Positions 13,753-24,503 of a stretch of 63,289 nucleotides of DNA are shown piece by piece. The notes beneath the pieces are model-generated. The model was given only the letters and a program-made list of their open reading frames with translations. It did not search any database and was not told the origin of the DNA. The stretch spans positions 1 to 63,289 of the forward strand of contig JAVCDJ010000028.1 in NCBI GenBank assembly GCA_030765845.1, written 5' to 3'. Origin of the DNA: Candidatus Stygibacter australis (lineage in GTDB: Bacteria > Cloacimonadota > Cloacimonadia > Cloacimonadales > TCS61). A program made the translations under genes and the position numbers. Position 1 is the first letter of the stretch. Every line of letters begins with the position of its first letter.

Positions 13753-15144
<1,392 letters not shown>

Positions 15145-18081: not shown

Positions 18082-18558
18082 CTATTCACCTTCTTTGATG
18101 ATCGCCTCAATCAATTCCTTATCATGCTTATTATCGACTTTTTTATTGAGCAATTTAGCTGTTAGATCAGACACTAAAACAGCAATATCCTGCTCTATCT
18201 GCTGCTGAGCTACTTTCTGCTTATGAGTCAATTGCTCTTCAGTTTCCTGCATTATATGCTTTTTTCTTTCTTTGGCTTCCAATAAGATGTCGTCTGCTTT
18301 CAGCTCAGCTTCCTTCTTTGCTTTATGAGTAAGCTGTCTGATATCTTCAGAAGATTTTTTGAGCTCTTCATCTCTCTGTTGCAGTAATTCATCGGCAGAT
18401 TTATGCTTATCTTTTGCCTGATCTATTTCCTGCTGGACACTTTTCTGTCTTTCTGTCAAATACTGCTTCAAAGGCTTGAAAAGCAGTTTATTAAGAACTA
18501 TCAGCAGAAGAATAAAATTCAGAATTACGATTATCATCGAATAATCAATACTGATCAT
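18082..18558 (-). CDS. atpF: ATP synthase F0 b subunit
   Basis: One N-terminal TM (ILNFILLLIVLNKLLFKPL) followed by a long charged coiled coil. Confidence 0.93.
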   Translation of the reverse strand: MISIDYSMIIVILNFILLLIVLNKLLFKPLKQYLTERQKSVQQEIDQAKDKHKSADELLQQRDEELKKSSEDIRQLTHKAKKEAELKADDILLEAKERKKHIMQETEEQLTHKQKVAQQQIEQDIAVLVSDLTAKLLNKKVDNKHDKELIEAIIKEGE

Positions 18559-18599: not shown

Positions 18600-18836
18600 T
18601 CAGGTTGAGAAGATGAGCAGTAATGCGATTACCAGAGAATAAATTCCCGTAGATTCTGATACAGCCTGACCTACAAGCATTGTTCTGGTTATCAAGCTGG
18701 CGTGTTCGGGGGCTCTGGCAATACCTTCACAGGCTTTTCCTGCCACAAAACCTTCACCGATACCAGGACCCAGTGCTCCTATTCCCATAGCGATACCTGC
18801 ACCTAAAAGAGCAGCGGCTCTTGCTAATTGATCCAT
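18600..18836 (-). CDS. atpE: ATP synthase c subunit, single hairpin, Na+-type (E28/E61-S-T...Y)
   Basis: GPGIGEG and [19 protein letters not shown] motifs. Confidence 0.96.
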
Positions 18837-18861
18837 AGTTTCCTCCGTTTATATTTTATTT

Positions 18862-19623
18862 CTATTTCACCGAAAAAATTAATAAAAATGATACTACCAG
18901 CGCATAGATAGCAGTTGATTGTGATACTGCAGCACCCAGGAACATAGTTCTCATAATATGTGATTTTTGACCCGGGAATTTGCCCACCATTCTGCAGCCC
19001 TTTCCTGCCACATTACCGATACCAGCACCAGGTCCAATAGTTCCAATACCAATTGCCAGTCCGGCACCTAAGTATGCTACTGATCTCAAAAGGATATGTC
19101 CCGCACTAAGATTGGGGATACTGTCCTGTAATGGTGTAGAATATAATAATAATAGGCTAACAAGCAGAGCAAATATACTGGAAGTCTGAGCTAAGGCCTG
19201 ACCGATCAGCATATATCCAAGAATGGAATTTGATTGCCGAGGCATTCTACTTATAGCATGACATGCCTGTCCCCCAGCGTATCCTGCTCCGGTAACTGGT
19301 CCCAGAGAACCAATTCCCACGGCAATTCCTGCTGATAATAAGGCAGAAAATCTGAACCAGCCACCTTCAACAACATCAAATCCACCAAACATAAGCAAAA
19401 GGGCTATAACCAGGGAGAAAATTCCACCTGTCTCTGTAACTGCCTGTCCTATGAACATTGCTCTAAATAATTTATCATGTGAATCTGGTTGTCTCATAAT
19501 ACCATAAGAAGCAGCGCTGGCGATATATCCGACACCGATCCCGCAAGTTATAGAGGCTATGCCTACGCTGAGTGCAGCTCCCAGAAAGGCAGCTATTTGA
19601 ATCGTTTCCATTGTAAAAATCAT
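18862..19623 (-). CDS. atpE: triple-hairpin (6-TM) ATP synthase c subunit
   Basis: Three tandem c-subunit repeats: GQAVTETGGIF, GQALAQTSSIF, GAAVSQSTAIY. Confidence 0.92.
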   Translation of the reverse strand: MIFTMETIQIAAFLGAALSVGIASITCGIGVGYIASAASYGIMRQPDSHDKLFRAMFIGQAVTETGGIFSLVIALLLMFGGFDVVEGGWFRFSALLSAGIAVGIGSLGPVTGAGYAGGQACHAISRMPRQSNSILGYMLIGQALAQTSSIFALLVSLLLLYSTPLQDSIPNLSAGHILLRSVAYLGAGLAIGIGTIGPGAGIGNVAGKGCRMVGKFPGQKSHIMRTMFLGAAVSQSTAIYALVVSFLLIFSVK

Positions 19624-19630
19624 ATCTTAG

Positions 19631-20914
19631 TTACTCCGCAATTTCTACACCGATATATGTCAGTGCCAGCATGGTAAAAACAAATGCCTGCACAGTTCCA
19701 ACAAATATTCCAAAGAATAAATTAAGACCCACAGGTAATACTATATAACTCACTAAGGAAGAAACAACAACGATGATTATGGCTCCTCCCAGGATATTAC
19801 CAAATAATCTGAACGAAATTGAAATTACCTTGGAAAATTCACTCACAATGTCTAAGGCAGCCAGGGGGTTTTTTATGGGATTAAGATAGTGTTCAAAATG
19901 ACCCCATAATCCTTTTACTCTGATCGCAGTGAAATGAACTACTAAAATAACTATAATTCCCATTCCCAGAGGGACATTGATATTTCTGGTTGGTTCCATA
20001 AACCCGGGAATAGGTATCAATCCCACCATATTGCAAATCCAGATAAATAAAAATATTGTAACAATATAGGGTGTGAAATTTAATCTATCCTGACCGAGAG
20101 TGTCAGAAACGAAATCCTCAAAGGTTTTATAGATCATTTCCATGATCAATTGTCCCTTAGAGGGTTTACCGGAAAGACTCTTTTTCAGGAAGATTATTAA
20201 TAAAAGGAATATTATATCGACAATCAGTAACATTCTTATAAGATAAAAAGCGCCCAAAGCAGAAGTTTCTCCAAATAATGACCTGCATATCTGATATGCC
20301 TTGTAGCTGCCGTAAATTCTAGGTAAATGCTCTTGTCTGGATAAAATGGTTTCAGGAATAATGCCTTCAATTACAAGTCGATTTAAGCGGGAAATATCCA
20401 GTGGTGTCAAACCAGGAGTTTTTTTCTTTAATTCAGAAAGATAATACTCTGTTTCGGTAGTATGCTCTTTGATATAACCCTTAAATCCTGCTTCGTAAAA
20501 TTTTGGATTGCTGATCACCTTTTTATTTAATTCATTAATCAATTCAGTTTTTATGCTGGCATTCCAGGTTGTATCAGAGTCTCTCAAATGATTTTTTATG
20601 CCAGTATTAAAAACGCTAAAAGCTTTAGACATAACAGGATTGTCACTTGCAAGGTACTCAGTGAATTTCTGGAAATCAGGAATTTCATATAAATGAAGCC
20701 GGGTATTTTTGATCAAAAACTCGTCACGTTGGAAATCCTCAGTAATTTTATCCTGAAGATCATAGTGACTCGCTTTATTTCTGATTACCAGCTTTCCTGA
20801 ATCAATACCGATCTCTAATTCTTTTTTAAATCCAGAACTTATCAGCACTAAAGCAACTTCAATTACTATAAAAATGAGAAAAACCCATCTCAGGTTTCCC
20901 TTCTTTTTAGCCAT
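19631..20914 (-). CDS. atpB: ATP synthase F0 a subunit with a large N-terminal soluble insert
   Basis: PSKGQLIMEMIY, PTRNINVP, SFRLFGNILGG (essential Arg), GTVQAFVFTML; 427 aa. Confidence 0.95.
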   Translation of the reverse strand: MAKKKGNLRWVFLIFIVIEVALVLISSGFKKELEIGIDSGKLVIRNKASHYDLQDKITEDFQRDEFLIKNTRLHLYEIPDFQKFTEYLASDNPVMSKAFSVFNTGIKNHLRDSDTTWNASIKTELINELNKKVISNPKFYEAGFKGYIKEHTTETEYYLSELKKKTPGLTPLDISRLNRLVIEGIIPETILSRQEHLPRIYGSYKAYQICRSLFGETSALGAFYLIRMLLIVDIIFLLLIIFLKKSLSGKPSKGQLIMEMIYKTFEDFVSDTLGQDRLNFTPYIVTIFLFIWICNMVGLIPIPGFMEPTRNINVPLGMGIIVILVVHFTAIRVKGLWGHFEHYLNPIKNPLAALDIVSEFSKVISISFRLFGNILGGAIIIVVVSSLVSYIVLPVGLNLFFGIFVGTVQAFVFTMLALTYIGVEIAE

Positions 20915-20916
20915 TT

Positions 20917-21303
20917 TTACTCCTGTTCCTCACTGTCTTTGGGAAACCTGATTAGATATAAGATAAATATCCAAATCTGCCCGGACAGTAAGCCGACACC
21001 GAATATAATAATATTCAGGCTTAAAAATTTCACTGCCAAAATGGAACCAGCAATAAGGATCAAATATCTGAAATTAAAATCCTTATATGCCATTAATTTC
21101 GCTTTGTTTTCACCCGAATAGAGATTCTTCTCTATTTTAAGCGACATTAACCAGACATTGATGAGACTCAGAAAAGCACCGCAAATCCAGCTCAAACTCT
21201 GTCTTGGCATCAGGGGCAAAAAAATTAAAGCAATGATGTTTGTCAAGCTAATTAATCTAAGTAAAACAACTATAAATTCTTTATTCTTTAACACTTGATT
21301 CAC
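20917..21303 (-). CDS. atpI: ATP synthase protein I
   Basis: ~4 TM, 128 aa, FRYLILIAG; immediately upstream of atpB. Confidence 0.75.
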   Translation of the reverse strand: MNQVLKNKEFIVVLLRLISLTNIIALIFLPLMPRQSLSWICGAFLSLINVWLMSLKIEKNLYSGENKAKLMAYKDFNFRYLILIAGSILAVKFLSLNIIIFGVGLLSGQIWIFILYLIRFPKDSEEQE

Positions 21304-21562
21304 TTTTTGAAATAATCTTTTTCAGCAATCTGTAGCTTCCAAGCATTCCTGTAAATACACCCATAATGATACCTGCTGCCTGCCATATTTGTCCAATCCC
21401 TAAAATTTTCGTAAGGTATCTTGACAAAAAGAACCAGATCAAGATGCTGATGATCATAACAAACCCTAATTGACCAGCCAGGGCAAGATATTTGATGAAA
21501 CCGTAATCTTTCATACTCATTTCTGCTAATATCTGCTGCTTCTGAATATCTTTATTCTTCAT
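21281..21562 (-). CDS. atpZ: AtpZ/AtpI-family (ATPase gene 1) protein
   Basis: Two TM helices; GQLGFVMIISILI...GIIMGVFTG pattern; first gene of the atp cluster. Confidence 0.7.
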   Translation of the reverse strand: MKNKDIQKQQILAEMSMKDYGFIKYLALAGQLGFVMIISILIWFFLSRYLTKILGIGQIWQAAGIIMGVFTGMLGSYRLLKKIISKSESSVKE

Positions 21563-22199
21563 TATTTCCTGTATTTAATAATCTGAATGGATCGATAAAC
21601 TGTCCATTTAGCTGGATTGAAAAATGCAAGTGTGGTCCCGTGCTGAATCCAGTTGAACCAACTGTGCCAATGACGTCTCCTTTTTCGGCAAAACTGCCAG
21701 AAGCAGCAAAAATCCGATCAAGATGTCCATAAAAGGTATAATAGCCGTTAAAATGCTCAATAATAATCAGGTTTCCAAAATATTCATCCTGCTTAAAAAC
21801 TTCTAGTTTTCCTGCGGCACTTGCTATCACCTCTGTTCCACGGGGTGCTGCCAGGTCAATTCCGGGATGTTTGTCCGAAAACTTCTGACTGACTACTGTT
21901 TTAACAGACAAAGGTCTCAGGTCAGGGATAAATCTATTCTCTATCGTTATGCTGTCTGGTTGATAATTGCCACCATTTTGCTCTTTAAGATAATTTGCCA
22001 GGATATTTTTTAAATCTTCAGTATTATCCTTAACAGGTATTATCCCATCATCTATGGGATTCTGTTCAGAGAAAGAAGCTGTGTTTGGCAGTTCGGATTT
22101 TATGGTTACCAACTCATTTTTGATCTTATAATAATCAATCAGGAAAATTATCCCGATTATCAGAATAATAATAGTCAAATAGCAGCAGGTTTTGTTCAT
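21552..22199 (-). CDS. M23 family metallopeptidase, N-terminally anchored
   Basis: HPGIDLAAPRGT, YGHL, STGPHLHF. Confidence 0.9.
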   Translation of the reverse strand: MNKTCCYLTIIILIIGIIFLIDYYKIKNELVTIKSELPNTASFSEQNPIDDGIIPVKDNTEDLKNILANYLKEQNGGNYQPDSITIENRFIPDLRPLSVKTVVSQKFSDKHPGIDLAAPRGTEVIASAAGKLEVFKQDEYFGNLIIIEHFNGYYTFYGHLDRIFAASGSFAEKGDVIGTVGSTGFSTGPHLHFSIQLNGQFIDPFRLLNTGNNEE

Positions 22200-23059
22200 T
22201 ATTTATTTTTCAAAGCGTCCAGTATCTTATTCATTTCCTCCCGGGAATTGAAAAAGAAACTTATCCTGCCTTTATCATTTTTTTGAGTGATATTAACCCG
22301 GCAGGAATAACTGCCATGAAGTTTATTTTCCCATTCTTTCAGATGGATAGATATCTCGCCACCACGCGGTTTAGCTGGTTTATCAACATTTTTCTTTTCG
22401 ATTGCTTTCCGGGCATATTCTTCTGTCATTCGCACTGACATCTGCTTATCGAAAATCAGGTTAGCAAAGTCCTGCCGGCTGCTTTCGGGAACCTGTAATA
22501 TTGCCCTGGCATGACCGGAAGTAATTTTTCCTTCCTGGATCATTACTTGTATACTTTCATCAAGTTTGAGGAGCCGGATCAGATTTGACACAGTAGTCCT
22601 TTCTTTTCCCACCACTTCACTAATTTGAATATGAGTGAGTCCAAATTCTTCGTTTAATTGCTGATATGCTTTCGCTTCTTCAATAGCATTTAGATCTTCT
22701 CTCTGAATATTTTCTATAATGGCGAACTGCAATTGTTCTTGAGGAGTAATACTACGAATGATAACCGGTATCTCTGGAATATCTGCAAGCTTGGCTGCTT
22801 CCAGGCGTCGTTCCCCGGCAACTAATTCATATTGGCTGTCAGCATTTTTTGTAACTATTACAGGTTGAAGAATACCATTTGTTTTCATTGATTCAGCCAG
22901 CTCAGCAAGTTTCGCTGCATCAAAAAATTTCCGAGGTTGATACCTGTTAGGAATAATACTATCTATTTTAAGAGTAGTAATACCAGTTGTGCGGTCAGTG
23001 GATTCTGGTCCACTGGAGAACAAAGCCTCTAATCCTTTACCTAAGCTTTCTCTTGACAT
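22199..23059 (-). CDS. parB: chromosome partitioning protein ParB
   Basis: [44 protein letters not shown] with [14 protein letters not shown]. Confidence 0.97.
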
Positions 23060-23811
23060 CTTTTTACCACTTCCTTTGCTAAATCTAAGTAACCTTTTGA
23101 TCCTGTTGAGGAAATATCATAATGAAAGATAGATTTCCCGAAACTGGGACTTTCAGACAGCTTAACACTTCGATGTATAACTGTGTCAAAGACCTTATTC
23201 TGGAAATATCTACGTACCTCGCGTGCTACTTGACGAGATAAATTCAAACGACGGTCAAACATAGTCAACAGGATCCCTAAAATATTTAAAGAGGGATTCA
23301 GTGACTTGCGAACCATATTAATGGTTGTCATCAGTTGAGCAACGCCTTCCAGAGCATAATATTCACATTGAATCGGTACAATCACTTCATCACAGGCAGT
23401 TAAGGCATTAACTGTTAATAAGCTTAAAGAAGGTGGGCAATCAATGATGATAAATTCATAATCAGCTTCAATAGAATCTATGGCAGATTTCATTTTAGTT
23501 TCACGCATAAATTCTCGAACGAGCTCAATTTCCGCTCCAGAAAGATCTACACTGGCCGGAACCACATAAAGGTCTTTTAATGCTTCATAATCGCACGTAA
23601 CTTCATCTATGGTTTTCTTGCCAATTATAACATCATAAATATTAGCTGAGTTTTTATTAATATCCAGACCACTTGAACTATTTCCCTGAGGGTCAAAATC
23701 AATCAGCAAAGTTTTTTTCTCAAAGATAGCCAGTGCTGCTGATAAATTTATGGCAGTGGTTGTCTTCCCAACTCCACCTTTTTGATTCACAATCGCTATT
23801 ACTTTTGCCAT
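23041..23811 (-). CDS. parA: chromosome partitioning ATPase ParA/Soj
   Basis: [42 protein letters not shown]. Confidence 0.97.
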
Positions 23812-23820
23812 TTACCTTTT

Positions 23821-24459
23821 TTATGTTCCACGTGGAACATCTTCCTTTTTCAATTCTATCAAAGTTCTTGTTCCCACTAATTCATGTGAGATATTATGCT
23901 TAAGAGCATTTGATAATATCTCCATATCATCCAGCTTCTTTGCTTTATATATAAATAATTTGCCTGCTCTACTGCTGAGTTTATTCAACTCTCGCCAATA
24001 TTTCTCTTCAATTTTAACTGAACGGCAGACTATTACATCAAAGTAATTATGCCAGCTTTTATCTAATAATTCTATTCGAGAACAAATTGTTAGACATTCA
24101 TGCAGGTCAAGCTTTTTTATTATCTTTTTCACTGCTTCCATCTTTCGTTGACGAGAGTCCAGCAGATACATATAGCTCTCGGGGAAAATTATTTTTAAGG
24201 GAATTCCCGGTAATCCTCCCCCAGTTCCAAAATCGAGAATTGTTTTACCATTCAAAGCCATGATTCCCACAGGTAAAAGACTATCCAGAATATGATTAAG
24301 CCAGATATCCGTTACATTAGCTTTTCGTGATATCAGATTTATCAGTTTATTAGTCTCGATAAGTAGCTTTACATACTGGTCAAGCAACTGCATTTTCTTG
24401 TCAAGATCAGCAATTCCATTTTTTTTTAAAAAAACTTCTACAATATCTTTACCTTCCAT
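23821..24459 (-). CDS. rsmG: 16S rRNA m7G527 methyltransferase
   Basis: NLISR, HILDSL, LDFGTGGGLPGIPL; ATG at 24459 follows CAGGAG. Confidence 0.93.
   Translation of the reverse strand: MEGKDIVEVFLKKNGIADLDKKMQLLDQYVKLLIETNKLINLISRKANVTDIWLNHILDSLLPVGIMALNGKTILDFGTGGGLPGIPLKIIFPESYMYLLDSRQRKMEAVKKIIKKLDLHECLTICSRIELLDKSWHNYFDVIVCRSVKIEEKYWRELNKLSSRAGKLFIYKAKKLDDMEILSNALKHNISHELVGTRTLIELKKEDVPRGT
23824..23839. promoter_or_regulatory. parS site in the last codons of rsmG
   Basis: Perfect palindrome TGTTCCACGTGGAACA. Confidence 0.9.
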
Positions 24460-24475
24460 AAAAACTCCTGCTGCA

Positions 24476-24503
24476 ATTGTTTGCACCTTTCCCCTACTGT
24501 CAA
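24476..24503 (-). promoter_or_regulatory. candidate sigma70 promoter of the rsmG-par-atp run
   Basis: TTGACA-N16-AACAAT on the minus strand just upstream of the rsmG RBS. Confidence 0.35.

What the first reader, a model, noticed from the sequence alone, without database searches (positions are those of the whole stretch)
18600..19623. Heteromeric F-type rotor: a triple-hairpin c subunit with only one carboxylate beside a normal c subunit
Seen: a canonical-order F-type atp operon has two c genes. One is 78 aa. The other is 253 aa and consists of three tandem c hairpins. Only hairpin 1 keeps the ion-binding Glu (E64, AVTETGGIF); hairpins 2 and 3 have Gln (Q146, Q235). All three hairpins lack the helix-1 Q/E ligand (V31, A113, I202). 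Hairpin 1 also has G and F where Na+ c subunits have T and Y, so its one site may be H+-type or inert. Established: Acetobacterium woodii builds an F/V hybrid ring from single c subunits plus a double-hairpin c1 with one site, and triplicated c subunits are known from archaeal A1AO enzymes (Methanocaldococcus jannaschii). Inference: a ring carrying two or three consecutive non-binding hairpins would lower the ion/ATP ratio more than in A. woodii, tuning the enzyme's thermodynamics or biasing it to ion pumping. It could also be a mixed Na+/H+ ring.
Basis: partly seen in the sequence, partly recalled or inferred. Interest (0 to 1): 0.87.

Follow-up and report, generated by a model that had tools for sequence, protein, structure and literature searches.

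The report
Three-hairpin ATP synthase rotor subunit
The only ATP synthase of this uncultured anaerobe (phylum Cloacimonadota) encodes a normal sodium-binding rotor subunit and, next to it, a conserved fusion of three rotor hairpins, two of which cannot bind an ion. The fusion probably puts blank positions into the rotor ring and lowers the ions moved per ATP, and I found no published description of this design, which occurs with 2-6 hairpins in many anaerobic phyla.

Summary
A complete minus-strand F-type operon (atpZ-I-B-c3x-c-F-H-A-G-D-C) carries a 253-aa protein with three ATP-synt_C hairpins (E64, Q146, Q235; helix-1 V31, A113, I202). Next to it lies a 78-aa c subunit with a full two-carboxylate Na+ motif (E28/E61-S-T..Y). 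This is the genome's only rotary ATPase.

The c3x + c pair is present in 110 of 201 Cloacimonadota genomes (50 of 61 genera) and is under strong purifying selection. Each hairpin is orthologous across the phylum. The number of carboxylates per c3x varies from 0 to 3.

The best reading is an A. woodii-like hybrid rotor of independent origin, with two consecutive blank positions that lower the ion/ATP ratio. The +1/+2/+5 ligands of a site come from the preceding hairpin. G66 and F69 therefore belong to the dead Q146 site. The E64 site lacks only its helix-1 ligand (V31).

The same a-cNx-c-b layout, with N = 2-6, occurs in Desulfobacterota (including cultured Desulfosarcina and Desulfatibacillum), Planctomycetota, Verrucomicrobiota, Chloroflexota and others. 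I found no published description. Ring incorporation, stoichiometry and ion coupling are inferred, not shown.

The parts
21281..21562 (-). AtpZ-like small membrane protein (ATPase_gene1), first gene of the operon
   Evidence: PF09527, 3.5e-07
20917..21303 (-). AtpI
   Evidence: PF03899, 9e-10
19631..20914 (-). Subunit a (427 aa). The ATP-synt_A domain covers residues 228-421 and is preceded by an N-terminal extension of about 200 aa. The essential Arg is present in ISFRLFGN.
   Evidence: PF00119, 1.2e-46; sequence read
18862..19623 (-). c3x: three-hairpin c subunit, 253 aa
   Evidence: 3 x PF00137. Best PDB sequence hit is A. woodii c1, 4BEM_J, 3e-29. AlphaFold pLDDT 94.7 with six helices. Best fold match is 4BEM_J, then V-type c subunits.
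19381..19623 (-). Hairpin 1 (residues 1-81): V31 / E64-T65-G66..F69, loop R-Q-P. It holds the only carboxylate (E64 codon at 19432-19434).
19135..19374 (-). Hairpin 2 (residues 84-163): A113 / Q146-T147-S148..F151, loop R-M-P. No carboxylate (Q146 codon at 19186-19188).
   Evidence: Gln in 110 of 112 family members.
18868..19113 (-). Hairpin 3 (residues 171-252): I202 / Q235-S236-T237..Y240, loop K-F-P. No carboxylate (Q235 codon at 18919-18921). It keeps S-T..Y, which would complete the Na+ site of the following hairpin.
   Evidence: S-T-Y in 108 of 112 family members, including all 52 with a dead hairpin 1.
18600..18836 (-). Single-hairpin c subunit (78 aa) with the two-carboxylate Na+ motif E28 / E61-S62-T63..Y66. 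It is preceded by a strong GGAGG ribosome-binding site.
   Evidence: PF00137, 5.2e-18. 5.5e-21 to F. nucleatum c, 3ZK1. VSESTGIY is invariant in 30 relatives. RBS.
18082..18558 (-). Subunit b
   Evidence: PF00430
17536..18081 (-). Subunit delta (OSCP)
   Evidence: PF00213
16025..17524 (-). Subunit alpha
   Evidence: PF00006, PF00306, PF02874
15159..16016 (-). Subunit gamma
   Evidence: PF00231, 5e-97
13753..15144 (-). Subunit beta
   Evidence: PF00006, PF02874
13359..13751 (-). Subunit epsilon
   Evidence: PF02823, PF00401

Best explanation
c3x is a rotor subunit that co-assembles with the single-hairpin c into one heteromeric c ring of a Na+-coupled F1Fo ATP synthase/ATPase. An ion site is built from the helix-1 residue and the helix-2 carboxylate of one hairpin, plus the +1/+2/+5 residues of the preceding hairpin. 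On that geometry the three hairpins of c3x contribute as follows. (i) The E64 site has S-T..Y from the preceding hairpin but Val in place of the helix-1 Glu/Gln ligand. It is therefore a weakened, probably H+-preferring or permanently protonated site. (ii) The Q146 and Q235 positions are two consecutive neutral blanks. (iii) S236, T237 and Y240 of hairpin 3 complete the normal Na+ site of the single c that follows. Each c3x in the ring thus removes 2 (or 3) ion sites without shrinking the ring, which lowers ions per ATP. For an 11-hairpin ring with one c3x the ratio would be about 2.7-3.0, against 3.67 for a plain c11 ring. SHOWN: gene anatomy, conservation, purifying selection, fold, sole-ATPase status, and Na+ motif of the partner c. 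INFERRED: co-assembly, stoichiometry, ion specificity and the energetic consequence.
For: Anatomy and operon.

Sole rotary ATPase in a 95%-complete genome. RnfD/NqrB genes are present. Ca. Stygibacter relatives are described with Rnf, Nqr, a Na+-PPase and a Na+ F-type ATP synthase.

Conservation: the c3x + c pair occurs in 110 of 201 genomes and 50 of 61 genera. All 30 fetched loci have c3x immediately followed by a c with invariant VSESTGIY. dN/dS is about 0.03-0.04 for each hairpin, including the carboxylate-less ones. All three cytoplasmic loops keep the R/K-x-P motif.

Evidence for a heteromeric ring rather than a c3x-only ring:
- 9 of 112 family members have no carboxylate at all.
- Hairpin 3 keeps S-T..Y in 108 of 112 members, including all 52 whose hairpin 1 has no carboxylate. 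In those members the only hairpin that could use these ligands is the single c.
- E31 and E64 co-occur in 48 of 48 cases, reproducing the single c's two-carboxylate site.

Site geometry:
- In F. nucleatum, S66 and V63 come from the adjacent subunit.
- The published rule for double-hairpin c places Glu in hairpin 2 and [STQ][STQ]xxY in hairpin 1.
- In multi-hairpin proteins, E/E hairpins are preceded by ..Y hairpins.

Precedent and fold: the A. woodii c9:c1 hybrid ring. A. woodii c1 is the best sequence match and the best fold match.

Translation signals: a dedicated GGAGG site precedes the single c in all loci whose start was called correctly. c3x has only a GGAG embedded in the atpB stop. This fits an excess of c over c3x.

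Sister families of the phylum that lack this operon carry a double-hairpin V-type c instead, which is another way of having fewer sites per hairpin.
Against: Two or three consecutive blanks have no characterised precedent. In an 11-hairpin ring they leave a 98-131 degree arc without an ion-binding carboxylate, and it is unclear how ion-driven torque would cross that arc in the synthesis direction.

The preceding-hairpin rule rests on published single- and double-hairpin structures and on sequence patterns, not on a structure of this protein. In the heterogeneous representative set the statistical support is modest (odds ratio 4.3, p = 0.03).

In most family members hairpin 3 carries a Glu with Ile at helix 1 and Phe from hairpin 2. 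This does not match either known site type and is unexplained.

Ring size is unknown, so the quoted ion/ATP values are illustrations only.
Confidence: 0.65

Rival explanations
1. c3x is in the ring, but its main role is structural. A covalent three-hairpin block would nucleate assembly or fix the ring size (possibly AtpI-assisted), and the loss of ion sites would be a tolerated side effect rather than the selected function.
For: Fusion length (2-6 hairpins) and carboxylate count (0-3) vary widely between lineages while the fusion itself is kept. AtpI and AtpZ are always in the operon. The linkers are conserved, for example EGGW and P164.
Against: Gln at hairpin 2 is almost invariant (110 of 112) rather than drifting. 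Carboxylate loss recurs in independent fusions, namely A. woodii c1 and the Desulfobacterota c4x-c6x. That points to selection for fewer sites. Single c subunits assemble into rings on their own in many bacteria (established knowledge).
Confidence: 0.15
2. c3x and c build two alternative homo-oligomeric rings, giving two enzyme isoforms with different gear ratios, rather than one hybrid ring.
For: In the window protein a (c3x)n ring would still have one carboxylate per three hairpins. Hairpin 3's S-T..Y could serve hairpin 1 of the next c3x.
Against: 9 of 112 orthologues have no carboxylate, and 52 of 112 have a dead hairpin 1 yet keep S-T..Y on hairpin 3. A c3x-only ring would be useless or pointless in those lineages. 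The two genes are adjacent and co-oriented in every locus, with no sign of separate regulation. The A. woodii precedent is a mixed ring.
Confidence: 0.08
3. This concerns the E64 site only. E64 would be a working coupling site that carries H+ rather than Na+, making a mixed Na+/H+ ring, instead of being a silent protonated residue.
For: E64 is retained and receives S-T..Y from the preceding hairpin, but the helix-1 ligand is Val. A same-genus relative has Glu there (L011). Loss of the helix-1 Gln/Glu ligand is expected to shift selectivity towards H+. This rests on my recollection of P. modestum/I. tartaricus mutant and free-energy studies and was not checked here.
Against: Nothing was tested. 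One H+ per turn alongside 8 or more Na+ would be energetically minor. The V31/E64 combination occurs in only about 8 of 112 family members, so it may be a near-neutral intermediate on the way to Gln or Gly, which 52 of 112 members have.
Confidence: 0.25
4. c3x is a decaying tandem duplication or an assembly artefact with no function.
For: Two of the three carboxylates are lost.
Against: The frame is intact in about 110 genomes. dN/dS is about 0.04. 41 columns are invariant across 55 sequences. The protein is identical or near-identical in independent MAGs. The fold prediction is confident.
Confidence: 0.02

Closest known systems
Acetobacterium woodii F1Fo hybrid (F/V) rotor: c1 (AtpE1, two hairpins, E62/Q162) plus nine c2/c3; PDB 4BEM. 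Also Clostridium aceticum c1/c2.
   Same: An F-type operon encodes a multi-hairpin c next to a single-hairpin Na+-motif c. Glu is replaced by Gln in a hairpin. The last hairpin keeps T/S-T..Y and the first has Phe at +5. A. woodii c1 is the best sequence hit (3e-29) and the best fold hit (TM 0.81 on the target).
   Different: There are three hairpins rather than two, and two consecutive blanks rather than one. The remaining carboxylate lacks its helix-1 ligand. The partner c has the two-carboxylate (E/E) motif rather than Q/E. The origin is independent: A. woodii c1 hairpins cluster with A. woodii c2, and Cloacimonadota H1, H2 and H3 form their own clades. Nothing has been shown biochemically.
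Methanocaldococcus jannaschii A1Ao proteolipid (triplicated c, six helices, two carboxylates). Recalled from memory, not checked here.
   Same: Three covalently linked hairpins with fewer carboxylates than hairpins.
   Different: It is archaeal and A-type, and its ring is presumed to be homo-oligomeric with two sites per three hairpins. Here the enzyme is a bacterial F-type with one (impaired) site per three hairpins and a separate single c partner.
V-type/bacterial A-type proteolipids (Enterococcus hirae NtpK 2BL2; yeast and mammalian c)
   Same: The fold of two of the three hairpins matches (TM about 0.8 on the target). The principle is the same: fewer ion sites per hairpin gives a lower ion/ATP ratio. 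The site is built from hairpin i plus the outer helix of hairpin i-1.
   Different: These are encoded in V/A-type operons and have regular alternation of one site per two hairpins. Sequence identity is only 18-25%. Sister Cloacimonadota families carry such a c in place of this operon.
Fusobacterium nucleatum c11 ring with the two-carboxylate Na+ motif (3ZK1)
   Same: The 78-aa single c has the same E32/E65-S-T..Y motif (5.5e-21; mechanism).
   Different: F. nucleatum has a homomeric ring and no fused partner.

Membership tests
F-type ATP synthase subunit c (AtpE, PF00137) | Helical-hairpin ATP-synt_C domain | tested here: met
   Three domains in c3x (2.2e-42) and one in c. The model has six helices, pLDDT 94.7.
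F-type ATP synthase subunit c (AtpE, PF00137) | Encoded between subunits a and b of a complete F1Fo operon | tested here: met
   atpZ-I-B-c3x-c-F-H-A-G-D-C
F-type ATP synthase subunit c (AtpE, PF00137) | Ion-binding carboxylate in the middle of helix 2 of each hairpin | tested here: not met
   Only hairpin 1 has one (E64). Hairpins 2 and 3 have Gln. The single c meets the feature (E61).
F-type ATP synthase subunit c (AtpE, PF00137) | Polar cytoplasmic loop R/K-x-P that contacts gamma/epsilon | tested here: met
   RQP, RMP and KFP in the window protein, conserved in the family
A. woodii-type hybrid (F/V) rotor | Multi-hairpin c with at least one Glu-to-Gln hairpin, encoded beside a single-hairpin c with a full Na+ motif | tested here: met
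A. woodii-type hybrid (F/V) rotor | Both proteins present in one c ring | not testable with these tools
   Indirect support only: zero-carboxylate orthologues, and conserved S-T..Y on hairpin 3.
A. woodii-type hybrid (F/V) rotor | Na+ dependence of the enzyme | not testable with these tools
   Only the motif (E/ESTxxY), Rnf/Nqr in the genome and the literature on relatives.
A. woodii-type hybrid (F/V) rotor | Common descent of the fused gene with atpE1 | tested here: not met
   In the hairpin tree, A. woodii c1 H1/H2 group with A. woodii c2, I. tartaricus and F. nucleatum (100/98). Cloacimonadota H1, H2 and H3 form separate clades. The alignment has only 81 columns, so deep nodes are weak.
V/A-type proteolipid (NtpK/AtpK) | Encoded in a V/A-type operon (A/B catalytic subunits, subunit I) | tested here: not met
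   The operon is F-type. There is no second rotary ATPase in the genome.
Archaeal triplicated proteolipid (M. jannaschii type) | Three hairpins with two carboxylates, forming the ring alone | tested here: not met
   There is one carboxylate, a separate single c partner, and a bacterial F-type context.

The most novel reading that the evidence does not exclude
Fused multi-hairpin c subunits would act as a natural, evolvable gearbox of Na+ F-type ATP synthases in many anaerobic phyla. By switching single Glu/Gln (or Gly) residues in a 2-6-hairpin block, lineages would set the number of blank rotor positions. Cloacimonadota c3x alone carries 0-3 carboxylates, and this varies even within a genus. 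In this organism the rotor would have to cross 2-3 consecutive blanks, about 98-131 degrees of an 11-hairpin ring, which is as large as a whole 120-degree catalytic step. That would mean either that elastic energy storage in the rotor is far larger than current models assume, or that these enzymes are kinetically rectified and work mainly as high-gear ATP-driven Na+ pumps.
Probability: 0.35. Interest if true: 0.88.

Novelty: new variant of a known kind. Interest (0 to 1): 0.72.

Why it matters
The ion/ATP ratio sets the thermodynamic limit at which a cell can make ATP or build a gradient. In bacteria it is thought to be tuned mainly by ring size. A. woodii's single blank position is treated as a rarity, and a 2026 survey still states that c duplications are much rarer in F- than in A-ATPases.

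This locus shows a phylum-wide, strongly conserved three-hairpin subunit with two adjacent blanks in the organism's only ATP synthase. It led to a cross-phylum class with up to six fused hairpins, some in cultured and genetically accessible sulfate reducers.

If these subunits sit in the ring, they give natural test cases for two open questions. One is how Fo generates torque across long stretches without carboxylates. The other is how organisms at the energetic limit (fermenters, syntrophs, sulfate reducers, anammox bacteria) gear their ATP synthases.

Tried and rejected
- The A. woodii ring-structure paper (Matthies 2014) is not held by DOI or PMC id. I took site geometry from the F. nucleatum paper, from a 2026 preprint's rule for double-hairpin c, and from my memory of E. 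hirae NtpK.
- The review by Brandt & Müller (2015) on the distribution of hybrid rotors could not be read. I saw only citing sentences, so I cannot exclude that it lists longer fusions.
- Eight literature searches found no paper linking Cloacimonadota or any bacterium with a 3- to 6-hairpin F-type c. A ninth attempt was rejected for syntax and did not run.
- A formal covariation test of the preceding versus the following hairpin, on the 50%-identity representatives, gave only modest support. That set mixes unrelated families, for example a roughly 320-aa Q/E..S/Q..L/E..S/D group. The curated operon set is clearer.
- The pseudogene and artefact explanations were rejected on conservation.
- Descent from A. 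woodii c1 was rejected on the hairpin tree.
- Coordinates of the AlphaFold model are not returned, so I could not measure contacts around E64.
- A ring (multimer) model cannot be built with these tools.

Full report
OBSERVATION

The window carries a complete F-type ATP synthase operon on the minus strand. Pfam assigns, in order:
- AtpZ-like (PF09527, 21281-21562)
- AtpI (PF03899, 20917-21303)
- subunit a (PF00119, 19631-20914)
- a 253-aa protein with three ATP-synt_C stretches (18862-19623)
- a 78-aa ATP-synt_C protein (18600-18836)
- b, delta, alpha, gamma, beta and epsilon

I aligned the three hairpins with the single c and with the I. tartaricus c. Hairpin 1 is V31 / E64-T-G..F. Hairpin 2 is A113 / Q146-T-S..F. 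Hairpin 3 is I202 / Q235-S-T..Y. The single c is E28 / E61-S-T..Y (codons checked).

IS IT REAL AND FUNCTIONAL?

- The protein is 97% identical to proteins of independent Cloacimonadota MAGs, including Ca. Stygibacter frigidus.
- A search of 201 Cloacimonadota species genomes finds c3x in 110 of them (50 of 61 genera), nearly always with the single c as a second hit beside it.
- All 30 fetched loci have c3x directly followed by a single c.
- dN/dS against the closest unsaturated relative is about 0.04 overall and 0.03-0.04 for each hairpin. It is 0.006 for the single c.
- 41 columns are invariant across 55 sequences.
- AlphaFold gives six long helices in three hairpins, with pLDDT 94.7 and pTM 0.88.
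- The best structural matches are A. woodii c1 (4BEM_J) and then V-type proteolipids. No solved chain covers all three hairpins.
- All three cytoplasmic loops keep the R/K-x-P motif.

The gene is therefore a conserved, selected rotor-type protein. It is not a decaying duplicate.

CONTEXT

The genome is 3.8 Mb and 95% complete. Its only PF00137 hits are these four hairpins. The only alpha/beta-type ATPases besides this operon is one 421-aa PF00006 protein elsewhere, which I did not follow up. This is therefore the organism's only rotary ATPase. Two RnfD/NqrB-family genes are present. The published description of Ca. [quoted passage not shown] It never mentions the c subunits. Two sister families of the phylum lack this operon and instead have a double-hairpin V-type c.

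THE FAMILY

Among 112 three-hairpin sequences, the carboxylate position of hairpin 2 is Gln in 110. Hairpin 1 is Glu in 60, Gln in 41 and Gly in 11. Hairpin 3 is Glu in 91 and Gln in 21. Per protein there are 0 (9 sequences), 1 (55), 2 (46) or 3 (2) carboxylates. The window's E-Q-Q pattern is shared by 12 sequences. Its helix-1 Val is found in the closest relatives, while a same-genus species has Glu there. The single c is invariant (VSESTGIY, with Glu or rarely Gln on helix 1).

A hairpin tree shows H1, H2 and H3 each monophyletic across the phylum (100/99, 98/94, 100/100), so the fusion arose once. H3 nests with the single c sequences. The hairpins of A. woodii c1 group with A. woodii c2 and with the I. 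tartaricus and F. nucleatum c. The two fusions are therefore independent (only 81 columns, so deep nodes are weak).

In Na+ c rings the ion is bound by the helix-1 Gln/Glu and the helix-2 Glu of one subunit. Ser66 and the Val63 carbonyl come from the adjacent subunit, and Thr67 and Tyr70 support the site. For fused subunits, a 2026 survey uses this rule: Glu in the second hairpin, [STQ][STQ]xxY in the first. This agrees with my recollection of the E. hirae NtpK structure. The partner is therefore the preceding hairpin.

The sequences bear this out:
- The last hairpin of the fusions keeps S-T..Y, and the first has Phe at +5.
- Hairpin 3 has S-T..Y in 108 of 112 Cloacimonadota proteins, including all 52 whose own hairpin 1 has no carboxylate.
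- In Desulfobacterota c4x/c5x proteins, an internal E/E hairpin is preceded by a Q-T-T..Y or Q-S-T..Y hairpin.
- In the mixed representative set the association is modest. The odds ratio is 4.3 (p = 0.03) for the preceding hairpin and 0.29 for the following one.

It follows that T65, G66 and F69 of hairpin 1 line the dead Q146 position and not the E64 site. The E64 site takes S-T..Y from whichever hairpin precedes it and lacks only the helix-1 ligand. S236, T237 and Y240 complete the Na+ site of the next hairpin. In lineages with a dead hairpin 1, that next hairpin can only be a single c. Together with the zero-carboxylate orthologues, this is the strongest sequence argument for a mixed ring.

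MECHANISM (INFERRED)

One or more c3x blocks sit among single c subunits in a Na+-coupled ring. Each block adds two neutral blanks and one weakened site. For an 11-hairpin ring, which is the size of the solved Na+ F-type rings, one block would give 8-9 sites, or 2.7-3.0 ions per ATP, against 3.67. Two blocks would give 5-7 sites.

A lower ratio allows ATP synthesis at low phosphorylation potential, or a steeper Na+ gradient per ATP hydrolysed. This is the argument made for V-type c subunits.

The single c has its own GGAGG ribosome-binding site in all loci whose start was called correctly. c3x has only a GGAG inside the atpB stop region. This is consistent with c being made in excess.

How the rotor crosses 98-131 degrees without a carboxylate is not explained by current models. 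It is easy under ATP-driven rotation and problematic under ion-driven rotation. The enzyme may therefore be biased towards pumping. This is speculative.

BEYOND THE PHYLUM

A profile-free scan of 1.84 billion representative proteins found 303 proteins at E <= 1e-10. Many have 3, 4 or 5 hairpins, and a few have 7 or more. Genome scans with alignments of these proteins found the same a-cNx-c-b arrangement with N = 2-6. The partner c is almost always E/EST..Y. The arrangement occurs in:
- Desulfobacterota, including cultured Desulfosarcina variabilis, Desulfatibacillum alkenivorans, Desulfocarbo indianensis, Dethiosulfatarculus sandiegensis and Desulfoferrobacter suflitae
- Planctomycetota (Brocadiaceae, Phycisphaerae)
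- Verrucomicrobiota
- Anaerolineales
- Armatimonadota
- Hydrogenedentota
- Latescibacterota

The usual pattern is a first hairpin E/E..F, middle hairpins x/Q-T-P..F, and a last hairpin x/Q-S-T..Y. That is one site per block, which is the window's pattern apart from V31. D. variabilis and D. alkenivorans have additional single-c genes elsewhere in the genome. The Cloacimonadota genome does not.

LITERATURE

Eight full-text searches, plus reading of the relevant papers, found A. woodii and C. aceticum two-hairpin c1, archaeal multi-hairpin c, and remarks that Rnf-dependent anaerobes often have several atpE copies. They found no description of 3- to 6-hairpin c subunits in bacterial F-type operons. 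The 2015 review on hybrid rotors could not be read, so prior mention cannot be excluded.

Earlier notes of this scan flagged the same class in other genomes. They agree with this reading but are not independent evidence.

VERDICT

This is a new variant of a known kind, the hybrid F/V-like rotor, with independent origin, longer fusion and consecutive blanks. Nothing has been shown biochemically.

Noticed in passing
window 19631-20914 (-), residues 1-227 of subunit a: Subunit a is 427 aa, with an N-terminal extension of about 200 aa before the ATP-synt_A domain. Long a subunits (276-553 aa) accompany c3x in loci of Cloacimonadota, Planctomycetota, Anaerolineales and Verrucomicrobiota. Desulfobacterota operons with c4x-c6x have normal a subunits of 223-225 aa.
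   Followed up: partly
L143, L176, L148, L174, L063, L151 (genome-contig loci): Cultured, sequenced sulfate reducers carry 3- to 5-hairpin c genes next to a single Na+-motif c in F-type operons, annotated simply as subunit C. They are Desulfosarcina variabilis, Desulfatibacillum alkenivorans, Desulfocarbo indianensis, Dethiosulfatarculus sandiegensis and Desulfoferrobacter suflitae. A Desulfonema limicola MAG has the same arrangement. The cultured strains would be tractable for biochemistry.
   Followed up: partly
L073 (Thermodesulfobacteriota MAG): A six-hairpin c (487 aa; E,Q,Q,Q,Q,Q) sits beside a single c. This is five consecutive blank positions, the longest seen here.
   Followed up: no
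G003, G004, G012, G014, G019, G021 (Cloacimonadota families f3 and f5): These families lack the F-type c3x operon. They have a double-hairpin (about 160-180 aa) V/A-type c instead, so the phylum is split between two kinds of rotary ATPase.
   Followed up: partly
family alignment, hairpin 3 (window residues 202, 235; hairpin 2 residue 151): In 91 of 112 orthologues hairpin 3 has Glu. Helix 1 then has Ile, and the preceding hairpin contributes T-S..F (no Tyr). This carboxylate environment matches neither the Na+ type nor the usual H+ type. It is unexplained.
   Followed up: no
P0192, P0197, P0200, P0216 (representative library): c-subunit proteins of 524-1139 aa with seven or more detected hairpins that all carry Glu, resembling the Methanopyrus-type monomeric rotor. 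Their origin is unknown because the library carries no names.
   Followed up: no
P0155, P0168, P0175 and about 50 further representatives of about 315-323 aa: A large separate family of four-hairpin c proteins with the pattern Q/E-T..L, S/Q-T-P..F, L/E-T-P..F, S/D-T..Y (about 30% identity to c3x). It probably matches the Dependentiae four-hairpin proteins flagged by earlier notes. I did not examine it.
   Followed up: no
window 21552-24486 (-): An M23 peptidase, parB, parA and rsmG (gidB) lie directly upstream of the atp operon on the same strand (parA/parB/rsmG named from their sequences only).
   Followed up: no
L064, L072, L074, L075, L077, L078, L079, L090: In Planctomycetota and Anaerolineales loci with c3x (and one unclassified MAG with a two-hairpin c, L078), the b subunit is about twice the normal length (250-336 aa). 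It may be a b-b' or b-delta fusion.
   Followed up: no
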